A DNA stretch of 64,000 nucleotides from a virus (IMGVR_UViG_3300045592_000030), one strand, 5' to 3'. Positions 31,435 through 64,000 are shown, numbered from the stretch's first letter. Translations and numbers: made by a program. Notes: a model not told the origin generated them from the sequence alone.

Positions 31435-32037
31435 ATGAAGAGTGCTAAAGTGTTAAAGATATTGCATGTATCGCGTCAAACGCTCGTGCAGTACGTGAAG
31501 AAGAAAGAGATAAGGGTCGTATCATTGCCAAACGGCACGTACGACTACAACGATGATGATGTATATCGCAAGGCTGGGCTTGCTTCAGAAAGAATGAACA
31601 TTGTCTATTCACGTGTATCTACGGCAAAACAAAAAAACGACCTTGATAATCAAGAAAAGACTTTGATTGACTATTGTAACAAGAATGGTGTTAAGGTAAG
31701 CAAGTCTTATAAGGATATTGCAAGCGGAATGAATTTTGACCGTAAGCAGTTCAAGCAACTACTTGGCGAGATACTGAATTTCAAAGTTGGCAGGTTATAC
31801 ATTACGTACAAAGATAGGCTTTCTCGCATCTCGTTCGATATGTTCAAGCGACTGTTCAGTGAATTTGGATGCGAGATAATAGCCATCAATGATACGGACG
31901 ATAAGGCAAACGAGACAGAGATATTCGAAGAAATCATTTCAATGCTTCATTGCTTCGCTATGCGGATGTATTCACGAAGGAGAAAAAGGAAACTCGAAAT
32001 AATGGAAGAGGATTTGAAAAATGAGATTAGTCTATAA
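31435..32037 (+). CDS. tnpA: IS607-type serine recombinase TnpA (MerR-like HTH + resolvase catalytic domain)
   Basis: MKSAKVLKILHVSRQTLVQYVKK... then VYSRVSTAKQKNDLDNQ. Start taken at ATG 31435, just after a TATCTTTG -7 box (31423-31430). The track start at 31408 is a TTG. Confidence 0.8.
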   Translation: MKSAKVLKILHVSRQTLVQYVKKKEIRVVSLPNGTYDYNDDDVYRKAGLASERMNIVYSRVSTAKQKNDLDNQEKTLIDYCNKNGVKVSKSYKDIASGMNFDRKQFKQLLGEILNFKVGRLYITYKDRLSRISFDMFKRLFSEFGCEIIAINDTDDKANETEIFEEIISMLHCFAMRMYSRRRKRKLEIMEEDLKNEISL

Positions 32038-33262
32038 GTTCTACATACGGCACGCAGAAGATCTTGACAGGTTGTTTAGTATTTCAAACAATCTGTACAA
32101 TCAGGCGTTGTATCTGTTCCGTCAGCAGCTGAATGCCGACGGTACGTGGCTGTGGTATAACGACATGGATAAACTCATGAAAAAGACCACTAACCTCGAA
32201 GGCGAATGTAACTACAAGTTGCTGAAATCTCAATGCTCTCAGCAGATACTCCGTGTTCTTGATAAGAACATCAAGGCTTATTGCAAGAGTATCAAGGATT
32301 GGAAGAAGCACCCCGAGAAATACAATGGAATGCCTAAGATGCCTTGTTACCGAAAACGAGGCGGTATGTTTAACCTGTATTATACCAATCAGTCATGCAG
32401 TATTAAAGATGGAAGAATCCGACTTGCTAAGGATTTATTTGTCTCTATTCCTCAATGGGAAAAATATGGCGAAAGTCTAAAGTCGATACACCAGGTACGT
32501 TTAATACCAAACTTCCGTAACATCAAGGTTGAAATTGTCTATGATAAGGAGACAGAGCAAGCTGATGTGGATAAGGCAAAATACGCTGCTATTGACCTTG
32601 GACTCGATAATCTCGCCACGATGGTTACTTCTGAAGGCTGCACGATTTATAGCGGCAAATATCTCAAATCTTACAATAATCACTTTAACAAGACACTTTC
32701 TCACTTGCAGTCTATCAAGAGTCTGCAAGGCATAAAGCGAACGACAAGAAGAATCACTCGTATTTACGACAAACGAGACCGCTATTTTGAGGACGCATTC
32801 CAGAAGGTTAGCCGTCAGATTGTCGATACACTTGTACGGAACCGTATAGGAACGTTAGTTGTAGGCTACAATGCCGGATGGAAACAAAAATCCGACATGG
32901 GCAAAAAGAACAATCAAAAGTTTGTTCAGATGCCTTTTGCGAGACTGGCAGACTATCTCCGCTATAAGTGCGAGATGATTGGAATTAAGTTCATTATGCA
33001 CGAGGAAAGTTATACAAGCAAGTGCGATGCTCTTGCTCTTGAACCTATTGAGAAGCATGAAACATATCTTGGGCGCAGGGTTAAGCGCGGATTATTCCGC
33101 TCCTCGACCGGGAAGATGATTAATGCTGACCAAAACGGAGCCTTTAACATTCTTAGAAAAGTAGTCGGCGATTCTGAGTTTTCTCGGATAGTCGGTAGCG
33201 GGCACTCGTTATGTCCGATACGATACCGCAATCCGTTTCAAACGGTTGCAGGAAGTATGTAA
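32021..33262 (+). CDS. tnpB: TnpB (RuvC-like RNA-guided nuclease family), atypical RuvC-II/zinc-finger region
   Basis: 413 aa with AIDLGLDN (RuvC-I), EESYTSK and NADQNGAFNILRK (RuvC-III). Overlaps tnpA by 17 nt. Confidence 0.8.
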   Translation: MRLVYKFYIRHAEDLDRLFSISNNLYNQALYLFRQQLNADGTWLWYNDMDKLMKKTTNLEGECNYKLLKSQCSQQILRVLDKNIKAYCKSIKDWKKHPEKYNGMPKMPCYRKRGGMFNLYYTNQSCSIKDGRIRLAKDLFVSIPQWEKYGESLKSIHQVRLIPNFRNIKVEIVYDKETEQADVDKAKYAAIDLGLDNLATMVTSEGCTIYSGKYLKSYNNHFNKTLSHLQSIKSLQGIKRTTRRITRIYDKRDRYFEDAFQKVSRQIVDTLVRNRIGTLVVGYNAGWKQKSDMGKKNNQKFVQMPFARLADYLRYKCEMIGIKFIMHEESYTSKCDALALEPIEKHETYLGRRVKRGLFRSSTGKMINADQNGAFNILRKVVGDSEFSRIVGSGHSLCPIRYRNPFQTVAGSM

Positions 33263-43380: not shown

Positions 43381-43404
43381 AATACTAATGTTTTGTTGCT
43401 ATAA

Positions 43405-43438
43405 CAAAGATAGAATATAGACTAACAGATATAGGGAC
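43405..43438 (-). promoter_or_regulatory. Late-type promoter TGTCCCTAT-N18-TATCTTTG
   Basis: Minus strand reads GTCCCTAT + 18 nt + TATCTTTG, 24 nt before ATG 43380. The leader also carries GTTATAG..CAAAACAT. Confidence 0.6.
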
Positions 43439-54104: not shown

Positions 54105-55412
54105 TTATTTGGACTTGAATATATAGAGAGCCGGATAATACTTCGTACCGAACATCTCCTTTATTTTCTTTAAGAACTTCTCATAGTCGGCCATGACCTT
54201 TGGCTCACTCATCTTCGCATGATCCTCCTGGCACATGCTGATGGCAAAGAGATGCCGCACCACACCCCTGTCATCTTTCACATTCCTTGCATCAACAAAT
54301 GTTGCACGACGAAATAACGGCTTCAATCCGCCACGACCATTGAAAGCTTTCACGACCGCCAGCCAATTGCGTCTATCCTGCTCATTCATTGTCAACGGCT
54401 CATTCTCAAACAAACTTTGCATGATGACACCTTGCGACTTCCCTTTGTTTTGCTTGTGCGCAATACCCAGGCGCGAGGCATGAAGCGTGAACTCTACATA
54501 GTCAGGAACTCCCCTACCCCGTCCGTTATTATACACGCAATGGTATTCAAAAGAAAACTCGCTGTTGTTTTCTAAGCATAGCCGGTCTAAGTCTTTCTTT
54601 GCCGGTTCAATCACCCTACGTACATAATCATTCCACCGAGGATAATCCTCTTTCGCAAGTTGATCGGTCTTTAAATCAAAAATAATATGTCCGGTAGTTT
54701 TTTTTAAGTCCACTGGTGTTACCTTAAAAGTCCTGGTATTCAACTGATACGATCGCATTTTTAGATAAACATAAAGTTTAGACGTTGCATCGTTATTACT
54801 ATATTTTGCAATACGGGCAAGATGCTCGACAAAGCCGTGATTCATGTCAAACACAGTAGAAACAACAGAACTGTTAATTTCCATCTCAATATAACCAGCC
54901 TTGCGCCCATCATTGCCCTCTATCGACGTATCATTACCATTATTATTACTATCAGGAAAAGAAATACGTGAAAACATCGGCATGATGTCATTATAGTGCA
55001 TGTACTTCGGATTTCCATGCCGGTCGTACATCAACTCTCCATCCCGGTTTTTCTTTTGTTCAAAGTGCTCAGTACGCACGTGAAGTTTATAAAGGTCTTT
55101 CAATGCAGCCTCTAAGCGACTATAAGCATAGACATCTACCAAATCACTCATCTTTAGACGTACCAACAACATGCCATTTTTCTGAAACGCGTCGTTTGGT
55201 ATTGCAGAATGCTGCGGGAACGTATCATCATGCGACTTACCCAAGAAATCGTTGACATAGCTTTGCATTTGCTTGCTTACCATAAACATTACGTCCTGCT
55301 GCATTTTGTTAAGAGTAACGCCCTGCTGCACATACGGAACGGGAGTCTTAATCCACCTCTCCTTATCAAGATCAGATACGGTAATCGGTAACTGCTTTTT
55401 ATCTTTATCCAT
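54105..55412 (-). CDS. Replication initiator-like protein (Rep), called from context
   Basis: 435-aa ORF whose start abuts four phased iterons. The N-terminal region is loosely Rep_3-like by eye. Confidence 0.5.
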   Translation of the reverse strand: MDKDKKQLPITVSDLDKERWIKTPVPYVQQGVTLNKMQQDVMFMVSKQMQSYVNDFLGKSHDDTFPQHSAIPNDAFQKNGMLLVRLKMSDLVDVYAYSRLEAALKDLYKLHVRTEHFEQKKNRDGELMYDRHGNPKYMHYNDIMPMFSRISFPDSNNNGNDTSIEGNDGRKAGYIEMEINSSVVSTVFDMNHGFVEHLARIAKYSNNDATSKLYVYLKMRSYQLNTRTFKVTPVDLKKTTGHIIFDLKTDQLAKEDYPRWNDYVRRVIEPAKKDLDRLCLENNSEFSFEYHCVYNNGRGRGVPDYVEFTLHASRLGIAHKQNKGKSQGVIMQSLFENEPLTMNEQDRRNWLAVVKAFNGRGGLKPLFRRATFVDARNVKDDRGVVRHLFAISMCQEDHAKMSEPKVMADYEKFLKKIKEMFGTKYYPALYIFKSK

Positions 55413-55430
55413 AGTCTTATTATATTAACG

Positions 55431-55515
55431 ACATAGCAATCTGTCGTAATCGACATAGCATGTTGTCGCAAAACACATAGCAACTTGTCGTAAACAACAT
55501 AGCACATTGTCGTAA
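55431..55515 (+). repeat. Iteron array L: 4 x ACATAGCA-N3-TGTCG(T/C)AA, 22-bp phasing
   Basis: Copies at 55431, 55453, 55475 and 55497, read directly. Confidence 0.9.
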
Positions 55516-55523
55516 AATATTTG

Positions 55524-55689
55524 CGTAACTTATTGATAATCAATAGAAACATCTCCAGTAATTATAACTATAATAATAATTCTATTATTTATCAAGTTTA
55601 CTTGGAAACTTGTAATTAATAGTATAGTATTTACTATACCAATTATAATTAAGCGGTTTTTGCGGATCGTAACTTATTGATAATCAATA
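55524..55689. promoter_or_regulatory. AT-rich origin core (putative DUE) bounded by two copies of CGTAACTTATTGATAATCAATA
   Basis: 22-mers at 55524-55545 and 55668-55689, each containing the palindrome TATTGATAATCAATA. The interval between them is very AT-rich. Confidence 0.55.
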
Positions 55690-55705
55690 CTAATCCTTTT
55701 TTCTT

Positions 55706-55790
55706 TTACGACAACCTGCTATGTTCTTTACGACAACCTGCTATGTTCTTTACGACAACCTGCTATGTTCTTTACGACAACCTGCATGTC
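55706..55790 (-). repeat. Iteron array R: 4 x reverse-complement iterons (TTACGACAACCTGCTATGT), 22-bp phasing
   Basis: Copies at 55706, 55728, 55750 and 55772. The last is degenerate. Confidence 0.9.
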
Positions 55791-55792
55791 AG

Positions 55793-56266
55793 TTAACCTT
55801 TTCTTTGCCGCTTCTCTTTCTTCTCCATTGCGTCGAGCCAATAGCGCGTTGCCTCGACGAGCATATCCTTTAGCGATACGTTGTTGCGAAGCTTGTACAT
55901 CATCATGCGCATGTAGATACTTTCCGGCATAGGCACCTGCACACCCTTCGTCGGTTCCGCCATCACCTTACGACTGGTAAGTATCTCTCCGCCATCAAAG
56001 GAACTGCCTAAGAACTCGCCCTTTTCTTCTTCCTTTTCAGGCGCATTGTGGGCATTCTCTTTTTCAGGTGCATTGTGGGCATTGCTGTTGTCGGCACCAT
56101 TGTTACCAGTGTTCCCTTTGCCATTGTTGGCATTGCTGCCAGAAATATTCTTTGCGGTTTCATCCACTGCTGGCTCATTAGCCACGCTTTCTAAACCGTT
56201 CTCCACCTGCTGCTCGGTCTTGCTGACAAGAGCCATTGCCTGAGCATCCTTGAAATTCTTTGCCAT
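55793..56266 (-). CDS. Putative ParG-like ribbon-helix-helix partition/centromere-binding protein
   Basis: 157 aa downstream of parA. C-terminus VQVPMPESIYMRMMMYKLRNNVSLKDMLVEATRYWL fits a strand-helix-helix. The N-terminus is low-complexity with an NAHNAPEKE duplication. Confidence 0.45.
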   Translation of the reverse strand: MAKNFKDAQAMALVSKTEQQVENGLESVANEPAVDETAKNISGSNANNGKGNTGNNGADNSNAHNAPEKENAHNAPEKEEEKGEFLGSSFDGGEILTSRKVMAEPTKGVQVPMPESIYMRMMMYKLRNNVSLKDMLVEATRYWLDAMEKKEKRQRKG

Positions 56267-56407
56267 ACTGATTGATTTTGAATTGTTATTTTCTAGTTTT
56301 TGAACGTTCCTATAATGATAGGTATGATGATAATTATCTTGCTTGAAGCGAAGCTAACAACGAAACAAACTTGCTTGCAAACAAGTAATCAAGTTTATTC
56401 CGGAGCG

Positions 56408-57226
56408 TTATTTGAAGATTTCTTTCTCCAAAGCCGCATAGTCAACAGCCGCGGGACTTTTCTGCGCGTAGTCGAAGATGTCCTGGCACTGGCTCTGCGC
56501 CTCGTTAACCTTTAAGGATCTATGAATAAAAGTCTTGGTAACATAATCACCATACTGCTGCGGAAGATAGTCGAGAAAGCCCTTAGTAATATTGCCTCGC
56601 ATATCCACCATGACCGGTACAATGCCTTTTATCTCCAAATCCTTGTTAACCGTCTTTTTGACGCGTGTCATCTCTACAAGGATAGAACCGAGTCCGTTAA
56701 CTGACAGGCCCTCCATTTGCACTGGAATGAGCAAACTGTCGGCCACGGCCATTGCATTGTACGTTGTACGGGACAGGGAAGGGGGGCAGTCGATCAAGAC
56801 ATATTCAAAGCTATCATTCACATAGCTCAGTCCGGCATCGGTGTGATCGTCGATGGAAGCACCGAAACAACCATACAACACCTGCATGGGCTGCATCTGA
56901 TGATTGATAACATTGTCAGCCTCTTGTAACAGCGGTGAAGCCGGAGCGTAGTAGATACCCTCCTGACCTCGATAGACAGGCACGCGACCCGTATTCTCTT
57001 CCAGTGGGGAATATTCCTTTAGCGCGTCCATCATCGTGCGCCCGTTACCGTCGAACCCGAACAGCGTAGAGAGATTACCCTGCGGGTCGAGGTCAATGCA
57101 AAGCACACGATACTTAGGATGGCGGAGCACAATCGCCTTGGCGAGGCTCTGCACGGTAGTAGTCTTACCGACACCACCTTTGTTGTTGACTACCGCAACA
57201 ACTTCCTTCAACTCATCATGTTTCAT
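56408..57226 (-). CDS. parA: ParA-family partition ATPase
   Basis: Deviant Walker A NNKGGVGKTTT. Start taken at ATG 57226 (MKHDELKEV). Confidence 0.8.
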   Translation of the reverse strand: MKHDELKEVVAVVNNKGGVGKTTTVQSLAKAIVLRHPKYRVLCIDLDPQGNLSTLFGFDGNGRTMMDALKEYSPLEENTGRVPVYRGQEGIYYAPASPLLQEADNVINHQMQPMQVLYGCFGASIDDHTDAGLSYVNDSFEYVLIDCPPSLSRTTYNAMAVADSLLIPVQMEGLSVNGLGSILVEMTRVKKTVNKDLEIKGIVPVMVDMRGNITKGFLDYLPQQYGDYVTKTFIHRSLKVNEAQSQCQDIFDYAQKSPAAVDYAALEKEIFK

Positions 57227-57632
57227 ATATTGAATGATTTTAACGTTATTATTTCTGTTGGCAAATATAATACATATTTTCAAAATAAACAAAACTTTCC
57301 GCGTTTATTTCTTGTTTTTATTGTTATTTTCTTTTTTTCATCTTTCTTTTATCCAAAGATACCATAATAAAAACATTGCTTGCTTGATAACTTGAAAACT
57401 TGTAACGTTGTAATATTGATATATTGAAAGAAAAAAAGGAATGAAAACAGAAATGAAAATTGGTAGAAATGGACGTAGAAATCAGTGAATTTTCAGCGGC
57501 CTATAATAAGGAACTTAGAAAAAAACGAAAATCGAAAATCGAAAAATAGGATAGGGGAGCGAGGAAACAAGCAAGAGGTTAAGAGCCTTTTTTGCCGCTC
57601 ATTGCTCCCCAAACAAGATATTCAAACCATCA

Positions 57633-58544
57633 TCATCGCCGGCTGTTCTCACTTTCCTCGTCCATCTTGCGGAGCATCTTGCGTGCCGCGACATTGGCCG
57701 CTGCCTGTCGGCGAAGTTCATTCAGGGGTGCGGGGTTCGCACTATTCGCCTGTTGTTCTTTCAACCGGGCATATTCTTCCTTTTCTTCCTCGTCGAAGGG
57801 GTGCATGACATCACGCGGAGCGCGGCGCGACGGGTCTATGTGATCCACACCGATACCACATGCACGCGGCAAAAAAATGCTGACATTCTCGCGGTCGTAG
57901 GCACCATGCCAGTCGAGCAATGGTTGCCAGTCGTCGGCATCCGTGGCAAACTCCGAGCGTTCGCGGATAGGAGTAAACCCGACGATATACTGCGCCATCC
58001 ATTGCATATAATAGTAGAGTCCTTGCAGGTCGATAAGGTTGCCATCACGCGCCGGACCGATAGGCTCCTTGCTAATCTCCACATCTTCCATACAACCGTA
58101 CAGCTCGAGATAAATGTTCAGTCCGGGACACTTTGCCACCAGGCGCGGCTCATCAAATTCTTCATCGTAAGTCTCGCCGATACTCTCCAGATATTCGCGC
58201 ACTGAAAGATGTTCGTATTCAGCGCGTGAAAGATTGCGCCATGCCACTAACCGCTCGCGGAGCCATTCCTCGCGCTTTTCACGGTTGCTTTCGCGCTTCA
58301 TTTTCTGCGTACTGGATGTTGCGAAACGATGCAACTTGCAAACAATATAAGGCCACTGTGTCATCACGCACACCTGTGCCATGTCCGTGCGTAGCGAGGC
58401 ACCGGCGACAACGATAAACGGCTGGTGCATCTTCATATTCGTGCGAAATGCCGGGATGTCCTGACGCGTGCACCCTCCCATAACATGAAGCTTTGAATTA
58501 TCATTCTTTCGATTATTGCTTGCGTTAATTCTTGAATTATCCAT
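57633..58544 (-). CDS. Hypothetical protein
   Basis: 303-aa ORF. Last gene of the early operon. Confidence 0.6.
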   Translation of the reverse strand: MDNSRINASNNRKNDNSKLHVMGGCTRQDIPAFRTNMKMHQPFIVVAGASLRTDMAQVCVMTQWPYIVCKLHRFATSSTQKMKRESNREKREEWLRERLVAWRNLSRAEYEHLSVREYLESIGETYDEEFDEPRLVAKCPGLNIYLELYGCMEDVEISKEPIGPARDGNLIDLQGLYYYMQWMAQYIVGFTPIRERSEFATDADDWQPLLDWHGAYDRENVSIFLPRACGIGVDHIDPSRRAPRDVMHPFDEEEKEEYARLKEQQANSANPAPLNELRRQAAANVAARKMLRKMDEESENSRR

Positions 58545-58588
58545 AGTTATCTAATTTTATTGTTTACTTGTTTACTTTGTTCGTTGCT

Positions 58589-58843
58589 TTATTTATTTGT
58601 AGTTTCCTTCTTCGCTTGCTCGATGATGCGCTCATAGTCACACACCCAGCGCAATGCCCGATTGAGTCGGGCATTGTCGTTGTCAAGTTCTGCAAGGATG
58701 CGCGGATTCGTTGTCATGCCCTTTATCTCATTGTTGCGTTTCATAGCCTGAATGAGGCTATCTGCCATGATTTCGAGTTGATCCAATGGCAGCACGGGCA
58801 ATGCTGCAATAGCTGCTATAACTTTCTCTGAAATGGTTTCCAT
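58589..58843 (-). CDS. Hypothetical small protein
   Basis: Start moved to ATG 58843 (METISEK), 8 nt after the leader element. The track start at 58933 overlaps the upstream gene. Confidence 0.5.
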   Translation of the reverse strand: METISEKVIAAIAALPVLPLDQLEIMADSLIQAMKRNNEIKGMTTNPRILAELDNDNARLNRALRWVCDYERIIEQAKKETTNK

Positions 58844-58851
58844 AATCTGTA

Positions 58852-58874
58852 ATTTTTGTGATGTTCTATAACAT
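58852..58874 (-). promoter_or_regulatory. Leader hairpin element copy a (GTTATAG + CAAAAAT box)
   Basis: Minus strand: ATGTTATAGAACATCACAAAAAT, then 8 nt, then ATG 58843. Confidence 0.6.
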
Positions 58875-58892
58875 ATTGAATACTGAAAATGA

Positions 58893-59366
58893 TTAATAAT
58901 CTTCTGCTCTGGCAATGGCTCCACCGGTGCCAAATATGGCAGCGATGACCATTATGCCAGGGAAGAAAACAATCGTACCGATGACAATTGCCGCAACAAT
59001 GAGGATAAAAAGCAAAGAGAATAAGCTATTATCCGGCTGCTGTTCCTGTTCGTCGGTTGTCCGGCTGACTGGTTTTTCTTTTCGCTTTCGCGGTTTTCGT
59101 GGCCGTGGCTGCGTTGTTTCCGTTGCCGCGGCTGATTGTTTGTCCGGCGTTGTTGGCGTGTCTGTTGCTTGATTATCGTCATCGTCGAACCATTCTATTT
59201 CCTCCGGATCATCAAAAAACATCGAGTAGATATGATCATCATCGCCATCTTTCTTAAAAGTCGTCCAGCCCTTACAGCCGCCTTCCGTTTCCACACAAAT
59301 AAACGTTGCGGTAAAGGAAGGACAGCCGGGATATTTTGGTGTGTATCTAAATCTTTTCTGTGCCAT
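58893..59366 (-). CDS. Acidic protein with C-terminal TM anchor
   Basis: 157 aa with DDPEEIEWFDDDDNQ and a C-terminal LFSLLFILIVAAIVIGTIVFFPGIMVIAAIF. Confidence 0.55.
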   Translation of the reverse strand: MAQKRFRYTPKYPGCPSFTATFICVETEGGCKGWTTFKKDGDDDHIYSMFFDDPEEIEWFDDDDNQATDTPTTPDKQSAAATETTQPRPRKPRKRKEKPVSRTTDEQEQQPDNSLFSLLFILIVAAIVIGTIVFFPGIMVIAAIFGTGGAIARAEDY

Positions 59367-59373
59367 TTCTCTG

Positions 59374-59405
59374 ATTTTTGCGAGCCTCTATAACGTAGGC
59401 CGTCG
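59374..59405 (-). promoter_or_regulatory. Leader hairpin element copy b
   Basis: Minus strand: CGACGGCCTACGTTATAGAGGCTCGCAAAAAT, then 7 nt, then ATG 59366. Confidence 0.6.
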
Positions 59406-59421
59406 GCGGTTAAACATGTGA

Positions 59422-60054
59422 TTAGTCGTTGTCGTTATCATTAACGAGCCCTATTGCCCAGATGGTAACGTCGTTGTCGTGGTACATCATAGAGTATTTG
59501 TTGTGTATTTCAATGCTGCTCTCATCGCCCTCGCTGCCAATGCACACGGTAACGAATTGTTCCGGCGTGCAAGACTTGACAGCATTCAGAAGCTTATCAC
59601 GCCATGCGGCTACACCTTCCAAAGCCTCCTGCAAGTCATCGTCTCCTTCATGGTCGCTACGGACACAATCAACAAGGTCGTTATACTCGTCGTTCACCTG
59701 CTCCTCGTCGGCTATCATGTAATAGTTAGGATCATCTTCGTAATCTTCCAACACGGACAGCCCGTTATCGTCCGGGTAATAACTGAAAACATTCCAGCTC
59801 TGCCATCCGTCGCGCCGCTTGAGTATTACCGTTGTAAGATTAAACTTACTTGCAAGTTCACGCACAGCTGCCATATTATCAAAGTTAATAACAGCGGGTA
59901 CAGAGGCACCACATGGAAATCCGCTGTTATCCGCCGACGCGTCCACCATTTCAGTACCAGGCATGCAGTCAGCAATAGCCTGCAATGTGTCCCAACCTTG
60001 AGCAATGTTGCTCTTGATATTCTCTAAAGTCTGATTATCTATAACGTTTGTCAT
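59422..60054 (-). CDS. Highly acidic protein
   Basis: 210 aa with long Asp/Glu runs (EDYEDDPNYYMIADEEQVNDEYNDLVD..., C-terminal NDNDND). Confidence 0.6.
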   Translation of the reverse strand: MTNVIDNQTLENIKSNIAQGWDTLQAIADCMPGTEMVDASADNSGFPCGASVPAVINFDNMAAVRELASKFNLTTVILKRRDGWQSWNVFSYYPDDNGLSVLEDYEDDPNYYMIADEEQVNDEYNDLVDCVRSDHEGDDDLQEALEGVAAWRDKLLNAVKSCTPEQFVTVCIGSEGDESSIEIHNKYSMMYHDNDVTIWAIGLVNDNDND

Positions 60055-60065
60055 ATTCGTATGTG

Positions 60066-60093
60066 ATTTTTGCGAGCCCCTATAACGGGGCTC
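60066..60093 (-). promoter_or_regulatory. Leader hairpin element copy c
   Basis: Minus strand: GAGCCCC-GTTATA-GGGGCTC-GCAAAAAT, then 11 nt, then ATG 60054. Confidence 0.65.
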
Positions 60094-60128
60094 TATGTGA
60101 ATAATATGTGAATGAATTAAGAATGAAT

Positions 60129-60560
60129 TTATTTTTTATAGAAATCTGCTCTCGTATATGAGCCGCATGTACAGCCCTTAATTCCACAAAAGTAATTTTC
60201 TAATCTTTTTTTCTGATTATCAGATAGATAATTTTCTATCCATTCCGATGAGCTTATCAGACCTCTTTCTACATCATCGAAGGCGTTATAAGCTTTTTGA
60301 GATACAATTACGTAAGTTTCTTTCGAATTATGGAACCCCCCACTTGCAAAAATCTTGTAAGTCTTCTTCTCTTTTAAATTTGAAAATGCGTCGTTACCGA
60401 TGAAGACGGCATCTTCTAATGTACCTCCACTTTCGTCACAATCAGAAATTATCTGGTCAATAAACTCGTCAAATGTTGCATTGGCATCTTTTTTATTGTA
60501 TTCGCTCTCTGTAAAGTCAATTGAGTTAATCAATTGTTCTTTTCTAATAATAGTTTTCAT
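60129..60560 (-). CDS. Hypothetical protein
   Basis: 143-aa ORF. Confidence 0.55.
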   Translation of the reverse strand: MKTIIRKEQLINSIDFTESEYNKKDANATFDEFIDQIISDCDESGGTLEDAVFIGNDAFSNLKEKKTYKIFASGGFHNSKETYVIVSQKAYNAFDDVERGLISSSEWIENYLSDNQKKRLENYFCGIKGCTCGSYTRADFYKK

Positions 60561-60586
60561 AATGATATGATTTTGAATGTTATTAT

Positions 60587-60874
60587 TTACTTGTTATGAA
60601 CTTCAATGAAGTTAATATCGCTTGCATTGATGATAGTCGTCACGAAATGAACATCCGAGGGGAATATCTGGATAAATCTAAAAGGCTCGTTAATGATATA
60701 CTGGAATGTCCCGTTAACGCGGTCAATCTTAATATCACGCGGCTCACCCCGTAAAGAAATGCGGACGAAATCGACATCCGGTTTTGTTGCCATCTTATCG
60801 AAAACGTACTTAATTGCTTCTATTGTCATAGTGTTATTTGTTTTGTGCCAACCTTGCGGTGGCGGGTTCAACAT
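60587..60874 (-). CDS. Hypothetical small protein
   Basis: 95-aa ORF. An internal Met at 60829 is an alternative start. Confidence 0.5.
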   Translation of the reverse strand: MLNPPPQGWHKTNNTMTIEAIKYVFDKMATKPDVDFVRISLRGEPRDIKIDRVNGTFQYIINEPFRFIQIFPSDVHFVTTIINASDINFIEVHNK

Positions 60875-60902
60875 GTAAATTATCTCTTACTTAATTACAC
60901 TG

Positions 60903-60934
60903 CAAAGATACGAAGATTATTTGAAAATACCAAA
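60903..60934 (-). promoter_or_regulatory. Host-type promoter TTTG-N20-TATCTTTG
   Basis: Minus strand match. Divergent partner of the + promoter at 60972. Confidence 0.5.
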
Positions 60935-60971
60935 TATTTTAGCGATTATTTTTGAGAAAAACCAAAAATAT

Positions 60972-61002
60972 TTTGTTATCCAACAAAAACACATTATCTT
61001 TG
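60972..61002 (+). promoter_or_regulatory. Host-type promoter TTTG-N19-TATCTTTG
   Basis: Plus strand match upstream of the HTH gene at 61048. Confidence 0.5.
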
Positions 61003-61047
61003 CAGCCGTAAACAATACATCCACATTAATATATATAATATATAGAC

Positions 61048-61419
61048 ATGCAAAAAGTCGATTTAGCAACGTTGTGCGCCCGGTATGGGTACAACAATCA
61101 AACGGAGGTAGCAAAGGCCGTAGGCATCACGCAACAGGCCGTAAACTATCTATTTAACAACAGTGATAAAATAGGATTGCAGAAGTTGCGCGAGCTTTGC
61201 GACGGCATCGGCTGCAAAGATATGCGGGAAGCATTTACCGACGCGGAAGGCGTGCCCTATACCGGTGCACCTGGTGAGTTAAGCAACAACCGCACATCCG
61301 CCGATCCGGACGAAGTATCAGCAAAACAACTGCTCACCATCAAAGATGATGAAGTTCTTTGTCCTCATTGCGGACAAAAAATGAAGCTGGCTCGCCGGTG
61401 GATTGCAACGGTAGAATAA
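61048..61419 (+). CDS. Cro/XRE-like HTH regulator with C-terminal CxxC element
   Basis: LATLCARYGYNNQTEVAKAVGITQQAVNYLFN is HTH-like. CPHCGQKM near the C-terminus. Confidence 0.6.
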   Translation: MQKVDLATLCARYGYNNQTEVAKAVGITQQAVNYLFNNSDKIGLQKLRELCDGIGCKDMREAFTDAEGVPYTGAPGELSNNRTSADPDEVSAKQLLTIKDDEVLCPHCGQKMKLARRWIATVE

Positions 61420-61433
61420 TAATCAGGACACGC

Positions 61434-61477
61434 ACTAAAAAAGCGGAGGCAAACAATTTGCCTCCGCTTTTTTAGTG
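61434..61477. terminator. Bidirectional rho-independent terminator
   Basis: CACTAAAAAAGCGGAGGC-loop-GCCTCCGCTTTTTTAGTG. Perfect palindromic arms with A/T runs on both sides. Confidence 0.8.
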
Positions 61478-61528
61478 CCCCGTGGACGAACAAAAAGCAA
61501 AACACGTCCACGGCTGCATGATCGTTAT

Positions 61529-61672
61529 TTATGCATACATAAACACAAAATACGCGGTGTATATAGACACGATGAAGATAACGCCCTGCACAAACTTTTC
61601 ATGTTGCCGGATGAAGTTCTCTATCTTACGCGCCGTGCGCATCTGGGTGAGGTACATTGCATTTACTTTCAT
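61529..61672 (-). CDS. Possible tail-anchored small membrane peptide (47 aa)
   Basis: Hand translation: MKVNAMYLTQMRTARKIENFIRQHEKFVQGVIFIVSIYTAYFVFMYA. Confidence 0.3.
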   Translation of the reverse strand: MKVNAMYLTQMRTARKIENFIRQHEKFVQGVIFIVSIYTAYFVFMYA

Positions 61673-61745
61673 AGCTACAAAGATTTAATGAGTGAAACGA
61701 TATTCAGGAAATGATAGGGTAGGGGATAGCCCTACCCCGAAATGC

Positions 61746-62693
61746 TTACAACTGAATGCCCAACTCCAAATAACGAAGTGAGTAAATAGCATTATGAGTG
61801 AGTTGCCGCTGCCATGCCCCGGCGGACGGACTCCAGCGGAATCCGTTATGCTTTAACCGGTCGCGGACATCGGGCGCGGGTTTATCATCAAACAACAGGC
61901 GGAGCCGGTTGTCGACATAGTCCTGCACCACTTTTCCACCGGCAAACGTCGTTACCTTTGGCTCACTTTGCGCGGTTTCTTCCATCTTTACCGAGTATTT
62001 TAGTGCAAGTTCAGGAAGTCGGTACCACTTATGGCGGCGAGTAAAAACGGGCTTCTTATGCTTACTGTTATATTCCTCCACAAGGGCCATTGCTTTTTCC
62101 ACAATCGACATCTTGCCATTGCGAGCTTTGCGCTCCACGAATCCATACAGATTACTCACGAAAAGCGAACGATAGCCCCATCCGTTCTTTTCGTCGATGT
62201 CGCAGATAGCTGCCACTTCATCGAATATTTTCTTACGTGCCTCCTGCCATTCTTCATCGTCGCGCTGCTCCTGGCTTTTGCCATTCTCCACACATCGCAA
62301 GATTGCACCGACAGCCTTTTTGCGCCACTCGGCAAAGTCCCGACACGCACCATCGTAACTGGCAATCGCTTTTTTATTACGTGCCACGGGGAAACGCGCC
62401 GGACCCGTAACAGCGGCGGATGCAATACGCGACTCACGAGCAAACAGGTCGCGCACCTTCGCGCGGAACTGCTCACGATAGCGGTCTTTATCCTCGTCGG
62501 TAGCTGTCTGTATCTCGCACAGATCATCAGCGAGTGAATGTGTGTATGAATCAAGTTCCACACGTCCGGCGCGTTCAGGGTCGAAGCTGCTCCAGTAGTG
62601 TGCATCTTGTGAGTCTTTCTTCAACGATGATAATGTTTCCTCTGCTTTGCCAGTGGCAACAACATAATCCAAATGCTTACTAAGTCTTTCCAT
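61746..62693 (-). CDS. Hypothetical protein, DUF3560-like C-terminus
   Basis: 315 aa. C-terminal LKHNGFRWSPSAGAWQRQL resembles a motif I associate with DUF3560 proteins of plasmids and phages (from memory, unverified). Confidence 0.55.
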   Translation of the reverse strand: MERLSKHLDYVVATGKAEETLSSLKKDSQDAHYWSSFDPERAGRVELDSYTHSLADDLCEIQTATDEDKDRYREQFRAKVRDLFARESRIASAAVTGPARFPVARNKKAIASYDGACRDFAEWRKKAVGAILRCVENGKSQEQRDDEEWQEARKKIFDEVAAICDIDEKNGWGYRSLFVSNLYGFVERKARNGKMSIVEKAMALVEEYNSKHKKPVFTRRHKWYRLPELALKYSVKMEETAQSEPKVTTFAGGKVVQDYVDNRLRLLFDDKPAPDVRDRLKHNGFRWSPSAGAWQRQLTHNAIYSLRYLELGIQL

Positions 62694-62701
62694 AATTTGT
62701 A

Positions 62702-62731
62702 ATTTTTGCGCGGCCCTATAATAGGGGCCGC
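62702..62731 (-). promoter_or_regulatory. Leader hairpin element copy d (loop variant TATTATAG)
   Basis: Minus strand: GCGGCCCCTATTATAGGGCCGC-GCAAAAAT, then 8 nt, then ATG 62693. Confidence 0.6.
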
Positions 62732-62755
62732 TGGTGAAACATATTCTTTGCTTGT

Positions 62756-63310
62756 TTATTTATCGAGTGTATGATAGGATAAATCCTCGACGACAACCGG
62801 TTTGCCGTTGCTCACGAGCGGCGGCATACCTTGTGCCACGGTTGCGGCGTTTGCCCGCTGGAGGTATTCGTCATCCGTCCACGACGGATCACGCTCTACA
62901 AAGCTATCTATCACTTCGCCGAGCTGGTCGCAATAGACATCATCGGACTGGTGGATAACTTCTCCATCTTTGCCCGTAGTAACGACGATATACGTATCAT
63001 TGCCCTCGTTATAGATAACGTGTACATGACCATCCGGCAAAAGCAATCCGGCCACGTGGAACCGCAACACGGGAATGAGTGCCCGCTGCTCGCCATCGCT
63101 ATTCAGTGCCTCGTAGCACAGGCCCTTTAATTGCGACGCGCCCCAGGACCAAACCGTATTATTACGGCCAACGCCATCGACGATCTGCTCGAGCATTTGC
63201 TGAGTGATAAGCTTTGTATATTCGAGCGCGTATTGTGCGCTATCTTTGCGGAGGTCTATCTGATTAATAACAGCGTCCACACCGAATGAGTCTAAATGTA
63301 TTGTTTTCAT
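62756..63310 (-). CDS. Hypothetical protein
   Basis: 184-aa ORF. Confidence 0.6.
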   Translation of the reverse strand: MKTIHLDSFGVDAVINQIDLRKDSAQYALEYTKLITQQMLEQIVDGVGRNNTVWSWGASQLKGLCYEALNSDGEQRALIPVLRFHVAGLLLPDGHVHVIYNEGNDTYIVVTTGKDGEVIHQSDDVYCDQLGEVIDSFVERDPSWTDDEYLQRANAATVAQGMPPLVSNGKPVVVEDLSYHTLDK

Positions 63311-63447
63311 ATCTTTCTTTTTGTTGTGTCCGGCGGACGAACCGCCGGACGGGTTAAACTTAATCTTTACTTAGTGCCACGATTGCAGCAAGACAGGCAA
63401 AGCACAGCAGGCAGAGGCCTAACTGGATAACGACGGGTGCAAGCATA

Positions 63448-63630
63448 TCAAGCGCAATAGAAATCATCGGGGCTGAATGAGAAATCTTTGAATGCTGAGT
63501 AAACTTCATCATCGCTTACGAATGCATCCGGGTTAGCAATCTCGCTCCACGTCGGCTCCATAGAGCTCTGGCAGAGGATAGCTTGTTTCAACTCGCAAAT
63601 CTGATCGTGATTTAATTCTTTTACTGACAT
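63448..63630 (-). CDS. Hypothetical small acidic protein (first gene of the early operon)
   Basis: 60-aa ORF preceded by a promoter and a leader element. Confidence 0.5.
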   Translation of the reverse strand: MSVKELNHDQICELKQAILCQSSMEPTWSEIANPDAFVSDDEVYSAFKDFSFSPDDFYCA

Positions 63631-63638
63631 AATCCAAA

Positions 63639-63667
63639 ATTTTTGTGACCGTCTATAACGTGCGGTC
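63639..63667 (-). promoter_or_regulatory. Leader hairpin element copy e
   Basis: Minus strand: GACCGCACGTTATAGACGGTC-ACAAAAAT, then 8 nt, then ATG 63630. Lies downstream of the promoter at 63697, so it is transcribed. Confidence 0.6.
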
Positions 63668-63696
63668 TGGTTTAACTTACTTTCTTAATTCTGTTG

Positions 63697-63727
63697 CAAA
63701 GGTACAAAGAATATTTTATATAACAAA
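63697..63727 (-). promoter_or_regulatory. Host-type promoter TTTG-N19-TACCTTTG (early operon)
   Basis: Minus strand match to the Bacteroides -33/-7 consensus. Confidence 0.55.
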
Positions 63728-63789
63728 ATATTTTGTGTTAAAATTTGAGTGGAACATCATTTTTGTTTATTCGCAACTGTAAACCGGTG

Positions 63790-63823
63790 ATTTTTGCGGG
63801 GGCCTATAACGTATATATACCCC
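63790..63823 (-). promoter_or_regulatory. Leader-hairpin-like element copy f (orphan, upstream of the early promoter)
   Basis: Minus strand: GGGGTATATATACGTTATAGGCCCCCGCAAAAAT. No ATG follows at the usual distance. Confidence 0.45.
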
Positions 63824-63864
63824 TATATACCCTGCGAAAACGGGCGCGGGTGGAGTGTTATTCA

Positions 63865-63999
63865 CGGGGCGCAATACGGGGCGCGTGGCTGCACCTTTGT
63901 GCCCTTTGCGGATAATCTCCCACCAGGGGCGCAATACGGGGCGCGTGGCTGCATTGATACGCCCTTTGCGGATAATCTCCCACGGGGCGCAATACGGGG
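63865..63999. repeat. GC-rich tandem repeat, 58-60 bp period, at least 2.3 copies, running off the right edge
   Basis: Unit: GGGGCGCAATACGGGGCGCGTGGCTGCA + variable heptamer (CCTTTGT or TTGATAC) + GCCCTTTGCGGATAATCTCCCAC. Copies start at 63865, 63925 and 63983. Confidence 0.85.
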
Positions 64000-64000
64000 C

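What the first reader, a model, noticed from the sequence alone, without database searches (positions are those of the whole stretch)
58852..63823. Family of covarying hairpins with conserved GTTATAG loop and CAAAAAT box in the leader of each early gene
Six copies, read on the minus strand:
- (a) 58874..58852: ATGTT-ATAG-AACAT CACAAAAAT.
- (b) 59405..59374: CGAcgGCCT-acGTTATAG-AGGCTCG CAAAAAT.
- (c) 60093..60066: GAGCCCC-GTTATA-GGGGCTC GCAAAAAT.
- (d) 62731..62702: GCGGCCC-CTATTATA-GGGCCGC GCAAAAAT.
- (e) 63667..63639: GACCG-cacGTTATAGA-CGGTC ACAAAAAT.
- (f) 63823..63790: GGGG-...GTTATAG-gCCCC CGCAAAAAT.

The stem sequences all differ but stay complementary, while the loop and the 3' box are conserved. 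That pattern argues for selection on structure. In copies a-e the box ends 7-11 nt before the start codon of the next gene. Copy e lies downstream of the mapped-by-consensus promoter at 63697, so the element should be present in the mRNA.

A stem-less version (GTTATAGCAACAAAACAT, then 8 nt, then ATG) sits in the leader of the tail operon at 43381-43408. A degenerate copy is at 57488-57510.

No U-tract follows the stems, so these are not canonical terminators. Possible roles are a translational operator or enhancer, an RNA-processing site that generates monocistronic mRNAs, or a DNA-level hairpin signal comparable to N4-type hairpin promoters or single-strand promoters of plasmid leading regions.
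Basis: partly seen in the sequence, partly recalled or inferred. Interest (0 to 1): 0.65.

Follow-up and report, generated by a model that had tools for sequence, protein, structure and literature searches.

The report
Hairpin leader modules between phage early genes
An uncultivated Bacteroidota phage-plasmid carries, in front of many early genes, a short mRNA module made of a variable GC-rich hairpin, a fixed TTATAG motif and an A-rich ribosome-landing box. The module probably controls expression of each gene within long transcripts, and it also marks the points where related phages have swapped genes.

Summary
Six minus-strand copies of TTATAG-N7-CAAAAAT, always with a 7-nt spacer, lie at 58852-63823 (0.24 expected by chance).

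In most copies the N7 spacer is the 3' arm of a hairpin. About nine different stem sequences, in this genome and seven related contigs, pair in the same register. One orthologous T-A/A-T swap and several G·U wobbles occur, and the wobbles pair only in the sense strand. This argues for structure in the mRNA.

New findings:
- The CAAAAAT box puts an A-run at about -14 to -10, the known translation-initiation determinant of Shine-Dalgarno-blind Bacteroidia.
- A third conserved box, (CAT)GTTTAACC, sits 5' of the stem.
- Four more leaders share this layout with other loops.
- Copy e and two such variants lie downstream of canonical TTTG-N19-TAnnTTTG promoters.
- The elements sit exactly at gene-cassette breakpoints between relatives.

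"Each early gene" is overstated: five of about eleven genes have a TTATAG copy, copy f has no gene, and copy a is essentially stemless. The 43381 "copy" is not a member.

I found no support for a terminator, an N4-type promoter, a nut site or an attC site. Best reading: a lineage-specific intercistronic and 5'-UTR RNA module. The role of the TTATAG motif is unresolved.

The parts
63790..63823 (-). Copy f: GGGG(T)...acGTTATAG-(G)CCCC-CGCAAAAAT. No gene follows within 30 nt. It lies between the 60-bp tandem repeats and the 63727-63697 promoter.
   Evidence: conserved in L137
63639..63676 (-). Copy e with its 5' box: GTTAAACC (63676-63669), stem GACCG/CGGTC, TTATAG (63658-63653), CAAAAAT (63645-63639). 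ATG of the 60-aa gene is at 63630.
   Evidence: it lies in the 5'UTR downstream of the promoter. The L137 ortholog gains a U·G pair.
63697..63727 (-). Bacteroidota-type promoter TTTG-N19-TAccTTTG driving the 60/184/315/47-aa operon.
   Evidence: 11 such sites vs 1.8 expected in the window
63317..63359 (-). Variant module before the 184-aa gene: GTTTAACC, a 9-bp hairpin GTCCGGCGG/CCGCCGGAC with loop UUCGU, then ACAACAAAAAG. ATG at 63310.
   Evidence: -20.1 kcal/mol, z -4.5; the loop is UCUGU in L199
62702..62742 (-). Copy d with its 5' box: ATGTTTCACC, stem GCGGCCC/GGGCCGC, TTATAG, GCAAAAAT. ATG of the 315-aa gene is at 62693.
60832..60875 (-). Variant module in the 5'UTR of the second early operon: CATGTTGAACC, hairpin GCCACC-GCAA-GGUUGGC, then ACAAAACAAAT. 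The likely true start is the ATG at 60829 (80 aa), not 60874.
   Evidence: A-U in the window is G·U in L133/L199; the gene is called at the downstream ATG in L133
60903..60934 (-). Bacteroidota-type promoter TTTG-N20-TAtcTTTG of the second early operon. It diverges from the HTH-regulator promoter at 60972-61002 (+).
60066..60093 (-). Copy c: GAGCCCC-GTTATA-GGGGCTC-GCAAAAAT. ATG of the 210-aa gene is at 60054. It is preceded by a TTCATTCACA-repeat flank instead of the GTTTAACC box.
   Evidence: (z -5.1); the L133 ortholog has C>U, giving an internal U·G pair
59374..59418 (-). Copy b with its 5' box: CATGTTTAACC, 5' arm CGACGGCC(T), TTATAG, 3' arm AGGCTCG (degraded here; a perfect 8 bp GGCCGTCG in L133, L137 and L201), GCAAAAAT. 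ATG of the 157-aa gene is at 59366.
58852..58874 (-). Copy a: linear motif TTATAG-AACATCA-CAAAAAT with only a 5-bp AU-rich stem in this genome. ATG of the 84-aa gene is at 58843.
   Evidence: no stem in L133, L137 or L201
57488..57510 (-). Degenerate member TTATAG-GCCGCTG-AAAATTC in the long non-coding stretch upstream of parA. No gene follows.
   Evidence: conserved in L133; two copies in L138
56300..56325 (-). Stemless variant TTATAGGAACGTTCAAAAAC about 35-40 nt upstream of the 157-aa gene that follows parA (approximate coordinates). It has the exact CAAAAAT form in L127, L133 and L134.

Best explanation
The elements are cis-acting modules in the early mRNAs of a Bacteroidota (probably Prevotellaceae-infecting) phage-plasmid.

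Host RNA polymerase starts at three near-identical TTTG-N19-TAnnTTTG promoters and makes polycistronic early transcripts. Within them, in the 5'UTRs and between cistrons, sits a module with this layout:
- a single-stranded AU-rich 5' box, (CAU)GUUUAACC;
- a GC-rich hairpin of free sequence;
- UUAUAG at the 3' side of the loop;
- immediately after the stem, CAAAAAU, followed 7-11 nt later by AUG.

The CAAAAAU box supplies the A-run at about -14 to -10 that SD-blind Bacteroidia ribosomes use for initiation.

The hairpin, whose 3' foot is fixed at about -16, most likely acts as a processing and stability determinant. It would be a structural barrier and landmark beside AU-rich single-stranded boxes, so that each cistron becomes an independently stable, independently translated unit (selective RNA processing and stabilisation). 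It may also display UUAUAG and CAAAAAU for ribosome/S1 docking or for an unidentified factor.

Because the roughly 55-nt modules are shared by unrelated genes, they also serve as homology for cassette insertion, deletion and replacement.

Shown: the motif, its fixed spacing, the pairing and covariation, sense-strand wobble pairs, position inside promoter-defined transcripts, the fixed distance to AUG, the match of the A-run to the published Bacteroidia initiation determinant, and coincidence with mosaic breakpoints.

Inferred: that cleavage or stabilisation occurs, that the module enhances translation, and what binds UUAUAG.
For: 1. Non-random, fixed-spacing motif: 6 copies vs 0.24 expected. 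There are 34 distinct copies in 10 related loci, and TTATAG is invariant in all 23 aligned sequences.

2. Structure under selection.
- In a swap test, each native 5' flank with its own 3' arm is the best combination in both row and column for classes f, e, d, c, b and n1.
- In-register pairing is 88% of cells, against 27-49% when the arms are slid by 1-3 nt. Stem positions 2-6 each show both C-G and G-C.
- Orthologous copies before the same gene carry GTCGGCC/GGCCGAC (L133, L201) or GACGGCC/GGCCGTC (L137, L200).

3. RNA of the sense strand. All wobble pairs are U·G or G·U in the gene-sense strand: c in L133, n2 in L133, e in L137, the L196 copy, and the 80-aa-gene hairpin, where A-U becomes G·U.

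4. Copy e, the 80-aa-gene variant and the AAA_5-operon variant each lie about 25 nt downstream of a canonical promoter.

5. The A-run falls at -14 to -10 when the spacer is 8 nt. Baez et al. 2019 (PMC6847099) show that A at -14 to -11 is enriched and that A-12 and A-13 stimulate translation in Flavobacterium johnsoniae.

6. Homology breakpoints.
- L133 carries an extra gene flanked by two copies of exactly the intergenic element 59421-59367.
- L196, an unrelated phage context, shares only 60069 to 59363, that is the 210-aa gene plus element b up to the next ATG.
- Strain variants replace 60041-60591.

7. b-type elements precede at least five unrelated genes.

8. The motif is absent from host-type genomes: 56 single hits across 185,579 species genomes, which is about chance level (my estimate, about 70). 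There is no Rfam family.
Against: - There is no transcript-end or expression data. The RNA runs that hold this phage are stored only as contigs.
- In-silico disruption of the 5' arms changes predicted accessibility of the initiation region by only 0-0.07. A simple 'keep the start site open' role for the hairpin is therefore not supported.
- The linear motif persists without a stem (copy a, the parA-downstream copy, the 57488 site) and without a downstream gene (copy f, 57488). This fits recognition of the sequence itself by some factor, on RNA or DNA, better than a purely structural role.
- The strict conservation of UUAUAG is unexplained.
- The stem register was fitted by me, and some compensatory changes may be whole-hairpin gene conversion between paralogous copies. 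For example, the L137 b and n1 copies share an identical loop.
Confidence: 0.5

Rival explanations
1. The module is an operator for a phage-encoded (or host) RNA-binding regulator. A protein would recognise UUAUAG, the 3' strand and foot of the hairpin, and CAAAAAU. It would then repress or activate translation of the set of early genes, or cleave their mRNAs, in the manner of T4 RegA/RegB, Mu Com or coat-protein operators.
For: - The conserved block is contiguous along the 3' side of the hairpin with invariant spacing, whatever the loop length (6-15 nt) or stem sequence.
- It persists in stemless and gene-less copies.
- It is lineage-specific: absent from the 42%-Rep relative L001 and from host-type genomes. 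This is as expected for co-evolution with a phage factor.
- The hairpin does not measurably change predicted accessibility of the start site.
Against: - No early protein has a recognisable RNA-binding, RegA-like or nuclease domain. All are orphans.
- No candidate partner was identified.
- The box alone is explained by ordinary initiation signals.
Confidence: 0.2
2. The module is a DNA-level signal. TTATAG-N7-CAAAAAT would be an asymmetric 20-bp operator or a non-canonical phage-specific promoter in front of each cassette. That would be analogous to the dispersed asymmetric C1 operators of phage-plasmid P1, or to the promoter half of T4-type PeSLs, and would give very short-leader transcripts. 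(The P1 and T7/SP6 comparisons below are from my own knowledge, not from a tool result.)
For: - The linear bipartite motif has rigid spacing, as protein-DNA sites have, and it is kept in stemless copies and in non-genic sites (f, 57488).
- TATAG followed by a purine resembles the initiation region of T7/SP6-type promoters.
- The genome is a phage-plasmid with an HTH regulator.
Against: - There is no TAnnTTTG or TTTG element inside the module, and only 7-11 nt remain before the ATG.
- Neither an RNA polymerase nor a sigma factor was found among the proteins scanned.
- Pairing of N7 with upstream sequence, and sense-only wobble pairs, have no role in a duplex-DNA site.
- Copy e and two variants already lie inside promoter-defined leaders.
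Confidence: 0.12
3. The modules are recombination linkers only. They would be conserved intergenic spacers that persist and spread because cassette exchange happens through them, with no expression function of their own.
For: Breakpoints between relatives coincide with the modules, and the same module precedes unrelated genes.
Against: - Homology-driven spread would homogenise stems, yet nine stem classes coexist with invariant TTATAG and box.
- Pairing is maintained through substitutions.
- The fixed distance to the ATG and the match to the known initiation determinant point to an expression role.
Confidence: 0.08
4. The modules are single-stranded-DNA hairpin signals: N4-type hairpin promoters, plasmid leading-strand ssDNA promoters, or priming signals.
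For: The stems vary while conserved bases flank them, as in N4 early promoters, and the replicon is plasmid-like.
Against: - No giant virion RNA polymerase was found. The largest ORFs are a tape-measure protein and a primase-helicase.
- Loops are 6-15 nt, not 3.
- The modules sit inside host-promoter transcription units and at a fixed distance from start codons.
Confidence: 0.03

Closest known systems
PeSLs (promoter-early stem-loops) of T4-type phages (Arbiol et al. 2010, PMC2839356; Comeau et al. 2014, PMC4122927)
   Same: Both are short composite intergenic motifs repeated in front of many small, non-essential early genes. In both, stems vary in sequence while flanking motifs stay conserved, and the motifs sit at the insertion, deletion and replacement boundaries that distinguish close relatives.
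   Different: A PeSL is a functional terminator plus a sigma-70-type -35/-10 promoter. Here there is no U-tract and no host-type promoter in the module. The conserved parts are an initiation-region A-box, UUAUAG and a 5' box, and several copies lie inside longer transcripts.
SD-independent translation initiation region of Bacteroidia (Baez et al. 2019, PMC6847099)
   Same: Both have an A-run at about -14 to -10 and A at -3 upstream of AUG with no Shine-Dalgarno sequence. The F. johnsoniae EF-Tu leader has the same A-run position.
   Different: The published determinant is a loose nucleotide preference. It has no adjoining hairpin, no UUAUAG and no fixed 20-nt block.
Intercistronic stem-loops of selective RNA processing and stabilisation (e.g. 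the cip-cel operon, PMC10311766; E. coli survey, PMC10667835)
   Same: Both are stable hairpins between cistrons of a polycistronic mRNA, flanked by AU-rich single-stranded stretches, and are thought to set segment-specific stability.
   Different: Those hairpins have no shared loop or box sequence and no fixed distance to the next start codon. Processing is demonstrated there and is untested here.
Lambda nut sites (boxA + boxB) (comparison from my own knowledge)
   Same: Both have a conserved single-stranded box followed by a short GC-rich hairpin, placed near early promoters. GUUUAAC shares UUUAAC with the boxA consensus CUCUUUAACA.
   Different: There are eight or more copies rather than two. 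The loops are not GNRA-like pentaloops. The modules are tied to start codons, and no N-like protein was identified.

Membership tests
PeSL (T4-type promoter-early stem-loop) | Stem-loop of variable sequence within a conserved repeated intergenic motif | tested here: met
   Nine stem classes with invariant TTATAG and box
PeSL (T4-type promoter-early stem-loop) | Host-type early promoter (-35/-10 equivalent) inside the motif | tested here: not met
   TTTG-N17-21-TAnnTTTG sites are at 63697, 60903, 57262 and elsewhere, none inside a module. The sigma-70 scan is at chance level.
PeSL (T4-type promoter-early stem-loop) | Stem-loop is an effective intrinsic terminator (U-tract) | tested here: not met
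   The stem is followed by (G)CAAAAAT. None is flagged on either strand.
PeSL (T4-type promoter-early stem-loop) | Located at indel or replacement boundaries between close relatives | tested here: met
   BLAST breakpoints at 59421/59367, 60128, 60069/59363 and 60041-60591
Bacteroidia SD-less initiation region | A-run at about -14 to -11 and A at -3, no SD | tested here: met
   The box ends 7-11 nt before the ATG. ATTATG context in a, d and e. Copy f and the 57488 site have no ATG.
Intrinsic (Rho-independent) terminator | GC-rich hairpin followed by a U-tract | tested here: not met
   A canonical bidirectional terminator exists separately at about 61421-61487.
N4-type hairpin promoter | 5-7 bp stem with a 3-nt loop | tested here: not met
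   Loops are 6-15 nt.
N4-type hairpin promoter | Virion-packaged giant RNA polymerase encoded by the phage | tested here: inconclusive
   No ORF longer than 1877 aa. The large ORFs are a tape-measure protein and a primase-helicase. About 5 kb of the 83.5-kb genome was not examined.
Lambda-type nut site | boxA consensus plus a boxB hairpin with a GNRA-like pentaloop, one per early operon | tested here: not met
   Only a UUUAAC core is shared. The loops are different and there are at least 8 copies.
Integron attC site | Outer complementary RYYYAAC / GTTRRRY cores forming the hairpin base; an integron integrase nearby | tested here: not met
   GTTTAAC fits RYYYAAC, but GTTATAG lies in the loop, not opposite it, and mismatches GTTRRRY at two positions. 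No integrase was seen in the gene lists.
Any Rfam family | Covariance-model match | tested here: not met
   No gathering-score hit in the window. In the E-value search, only the terminator hairpin gives spurious miRNA hits.
Selective RNA processing/stabilisation stem-loop | Endonucleolytic processing next to the hairpin and differential segment stability | not testable with these tools
   RNA runs are available only as undirected contigs.

The most novel reading that the evidence does not exclude
The module is a dedicated, portable ribosome-recruitment or translational-control element for ribosomes that cannot use Shine-Dalgarno pairing. The hairpin would present UUAUAG and the A-tract as a bipartite docking site, either for S1/30S or for an unknown phage regulator that switches the whole early gene set. 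That would make it a phage-evolved counterpart of an IRES or operator in Bacteroidia.
Probability: 0.25. Interest if true: 0.7.

Novelty: new variant of a known kind. Interest (0 to 1): 0.45.

Why it matters
How Bacteroidia and their phages select start codons and balance expression within operons, without Shine-Dalgarno pairing, is still poorly understood. A compact module of about 55 nt that a phage places in front of unrelated genes is a natural experiment on that question. It is also a candidate expression part for Bacteroides or Prevotella engineering. In addition, it extends the idea that conserved regulatory linkers drive modular gene shuffling. That idea was described for T4-type coliphages; here it appears in a Bacteroidota phage-plasmid, with an RNA-level linker rather than a promoter/terminator one.

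Tried and rejected
- Megablast, blastn and tblastn against GenBank phages found no relative of the region, of a 68-nt element or of the Rep protein.
- Three protein-anchored scans of IMG/VR gave only one 42%-identity Rep relative, which lacks the motif.
- Pattern scans of IMG/VR returned only single, chance-like hits: coding sequences, with no GC hairpin and no ATG.
- The Rep profile found nothing in 185,579 species genomes. The 17-base motif pattern gave 56 single hits, about the chance number by my estimate (about 70).
- The metagenome scan with the HTH protein gave only 4 loci. The useful relatives came from exact-protein look-ups instead.
- I did not build a covariance model. I used a swap test and register-slide counts instead.
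- RNA-seq end mapping was not possible. All RNA runs are stored as undirected contigs, and several 'RNA' wastewater runs look like mixed-strain total nucleic acid.
- 'The hairpin keeps the start site unstructured': scrambling the 5' arm changes predicted unpaired probability by 0.07 or less. Not supported.
- Upstream mini-ORF from the ATG of the 5' box to the TAG of TTATAG: it is in frame in only about half of the copies, and other copies run into or past the main ATG. Rejected as a consistent feature (from reading the sequences).
- Antisense promoter or terminator reading of the plus strand: there is no TAnnTTTG, and the T-run precedes rather than follows the hairpin. Rejected.
- Integron attC, IS200/IS605 ends and REP elements were considered because of the TnpB gene and the GTTTAAC/GTTATAG cores. 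The architecture does not fit.
- The early proteins have no informative Pfam or PHROG domain.

Full report
**What is there.**
Read on the minus strand, 57300-64000 is a block of small genes of unknown function. They are arranged around a plus-strand HTH regulator gene (61048-61419). The pattern TTATA-N4-12-CAAAAAT occurs six times in the 64-kb window. All six are on the minus strand within 58852-63809, against 0.24 expected. The stricter TTATAG-N3-10-GCAAAAAT occurs four times against 0.01 expected. Every match is exactly 20 nt, so the spacing is an invariant 7 nt. CAAAAAT alone is not enriched. The box ends 8, 7, 11, 8 and 8 nt before the ATG of the 84-, 157-, 210-, 315- and 60-aa genes. Copy f has no gene behind it. 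Hairpins c and d are strong (z -5.1 and -2.4), b, e and f are modest, and a is marginal.

**Context.**
- The element belongs to an uncultivated siphovirus-like phage of about 83.5 kb.
- It encodes a tape-measure protein, a primase-helicase and a DnaN homolog. It also has a plasmid-type module: ParA, a Rep3-like initiator and two arrays of 22-bp iterons.
- Near-identical contigs come from bioreactor sludge and wastewater, and relatives are abundant in bovine gut data.
- The host is a Bacteroidota member. The phylum's promoter, TTTG-N17-21-TAnnTTTG, occurs 11 times against 1.8 expected.
- The only database relatives of Rep are replication initiators of Segatella and Prevotella plasmids.
- Promoters at 63727-63697 and 60934-60903 drive two minus-strand operons. 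A third, plus-strand promoter at 60972-61002 serves the regulator gene.
- A canonical bidirectional terminator lies at about 61421-61487.

**Relatives and covariation.**
Annotated phages and IMG/VR hold no close relative. Exact-protein look-ups of Rep and 210-aa-protein homologs recovered seven informative contigs (L131, L133, L137, L138, L196, L199-L201). Together these give 34 distinct copies of the motif.
- TTATAG is invariant, and the box nearly so, in 23 aligned sequences. The stems fall into about nine classes.
- In every stemmed class the 3' arm is the G of TTATAG plus the N7 spacer. The 5' arm lies 6-15 nt upstream.
- In a swap test, each native 5' flank with its own 3' arm was the best of 12 in both row and column for classes f, e, d, c, b and n1.
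- With arms in register, 88% of cells pair, against 27-49% when slid by 1-3 nt. Stem positions 2-6 each show both C-G and G-C. The register was fitted by me.
- Orthologous copies before the same gene read GTCGGCC/GGCCGAC in L133 and L201 but GACGGCC/GGCCGTC in L137 and L200. Part of this may be whole-hairpin conversion from the b-type copy.
- All wobble pairs are U·G or G·U in the gene-sense strand and would be A·C in the antisense strand. This points to sense-strand RNA.

1. A 5' box, (CAT)GTTTAACC, lies 0-3 nt before the stem in classes b, d, e, n1 and n2 and in the L196 copy.
2. The same layout (5' box, GC hairpin, A-rich box, about 8 nt, ATG) recurs with other loops:
   - before the 184-aa gene (9-bp stem, loop UUCGU, -20.1 kcal/mol);
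   - before the 80/95-aa gene (loop GCAA);
   - outside the window, before the AAA_5 and DUF7192 genes.
3. Three near-identical promoters are each followed about 25 nt later by such a module. So at least those copies are in 5'UTRs.
4. Copy a, the copy downstream of parA and the 57488 site keep the linear motif without the stem.

**The 3' box.**
In Bacteroidia the anti-SD is sequestered. Initiation depends on an A-run at -14 to -11 (A-12 and A-13 tested), on A-3 and on low structure (Baez et al. 2019, PMC6847099). With the 8-nt spacer, the A's of CAAAAAT fall at -14 to -10, the position of the A-run in the F. johnsoniae EF-Tu leader. Most of the genes also have ATTATG. The box is therefore largely the ordinary initiation determinant of this phylum.

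**Cassette boundaries.**
- Against L133, homology breaks at the gene ends. L133 carries an extra 132-aa gene flanked by two copies of exactly the intergenic element 59421-59367.
- L196, a different phage context, shares only 60069 to 59363. That is the 210-aa gene plus element b up to the next gene's ATG.
- In L199-L201 the gene ends plus the modules are 82-90% identical, while the gene interior has diverged to about 50% protein identity.
- Strain variants replace 60041-60591 with another cassette, and contigs from mixed samples break at the modules.
- b-type modules precede at least five unrelated genes.

This is the behaviour described for PeSLs of T4-type phages (PMC2839356, PMC4122927).

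**What it is not.**
- Not a terminator: there is no U-tract and no scan hit.
- Not a host-type promoter on either strand.
- Not an N4-type or ssDNA promoter. The loops are too long, no giant RNA polymerase was found, and the modules lie inside ordinary transcription units.
- Not a nut site, an attC site or any Rfam family.
- Not a host-genome motif: 56 single hits, about the chance number by my estimate.
- The 'copy' at 43381-43408 lacks the box at the fixed spacing, and its GTTATAG abuts a TAtcTTTG -7 box.

**Mechanism.**
The best-supported reading is an mRNA-level module in 5'UTRs and between cistrons. It combines the SD-less initiation region with a structure-selected hairpin whose foot is fixed at about -16.

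I tested the simplest role for the hairpin, keeping the start site unpaired. Scrambling the 5' arm changes predicted accessibility by 0.07 or less, so that role has no support.

The hairpin is therefore more likely a processing and stability landmark flanked by AU-rich single-stranded boxes, as in selective RNA processing and stabilisation. Alternatively, it could be part of a binding site for S1/30S or an unknown regulator.

The strict conservation of UUAUAG at a fixed distance from the A-box, even without a stem or a gene, is not explained by any of this. It keeps a trans-factor model (RNA-binding, less likely DNA-binding) alive. No early protein has an informative domain. No transcript-end data could be obtained.

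**Verdict.**
This is a real, lineage-specific, structured intergenic element. It is a new variant of known kinds: PeSL-like cassette linkers, structured SD-independent leaders, and intercistronic stabiliser hairpins. It is moderately interesting, and its exact function is open.

Noticed in passing
window 54105-57293 (ParA 56408-57226; Rep3-like 54105-55412; iterons 55427-55516 and 55705-55789): A plasmid-type replication and partition module sits inside a tailed-phage genome. It comprises ParA, a Rep3-like initiator with distant homologs on Segatella/Prevotella plasmids, and two arrays of about four 22-bp iterons flanking the rep promoter region. This suggests a phage-plasmid lifestyle in Bacteroidota.
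   Followed up: partly
window 63863-64000 (continues beyond the window; L122 6049-6189): A 60-bp tandem repeat (2.3 copies here, more copies with a period of about 57 bp in L138) lies just upstream of copy f and the first early promoter. Its function is unknown.
   Followed up: partly
window 32021-33262 (+): A TnpB/IS605 OrfB-type gene (OrfB_IS605 plus the Cas12f-like TNB domain) sits on the strand opposite to almost all other genes. It is probably an inserted IS element.
   Followed up: no
window 60829-60874: The longest ORF of the first gene of the second early operon starts at an ATG inside the CATGTTGAACC 5' box (95 aa). The relative L133 is called from the downstream ATG (80 aa), which has the usual hairpin and A-box leader, so the shorter form is probably the real one.
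   Followed up: partly
window 60094-60128; L001 230-300 and 6975-7043: Copy c is preceded by TTCATTCACA-type short repeats instead of the GTTTAACC box. The distant relative L001 has no hairpins at all but uses long TCATCAATTCATCA repeat leaders before its genes. This may be an alternative unstructured leader type.
   Followed up: no
window 63697-63733 and 60897-60934; L122 3640-3668: The early promoters are near-identical blocks of about 40 nt. In rumen and wastewater assemblies many unrelated sequences are joined to this block (loose ends at 63695/63733 and 60897-60914). So the promoter block itself is shared among many genomes.
   Followed up: partly
L200 1113-1132: An exact TTATAG-N7-CAAAAAT lies inside a called 584-aa ORF (LPD29 hit), followed by ATG codons. 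The long ORF may be a read-through call across two genes separated by a module.
   Followed up: no
window 61421-61487: A perfect bidirectional terminator (A-tract, GC hairpin, T-tract) lies between the convergent 47-aa gene and the HTH regulator gene. It is the only Rfam 'hit' in the region (spurious miRNA models).
   Followed up: partly
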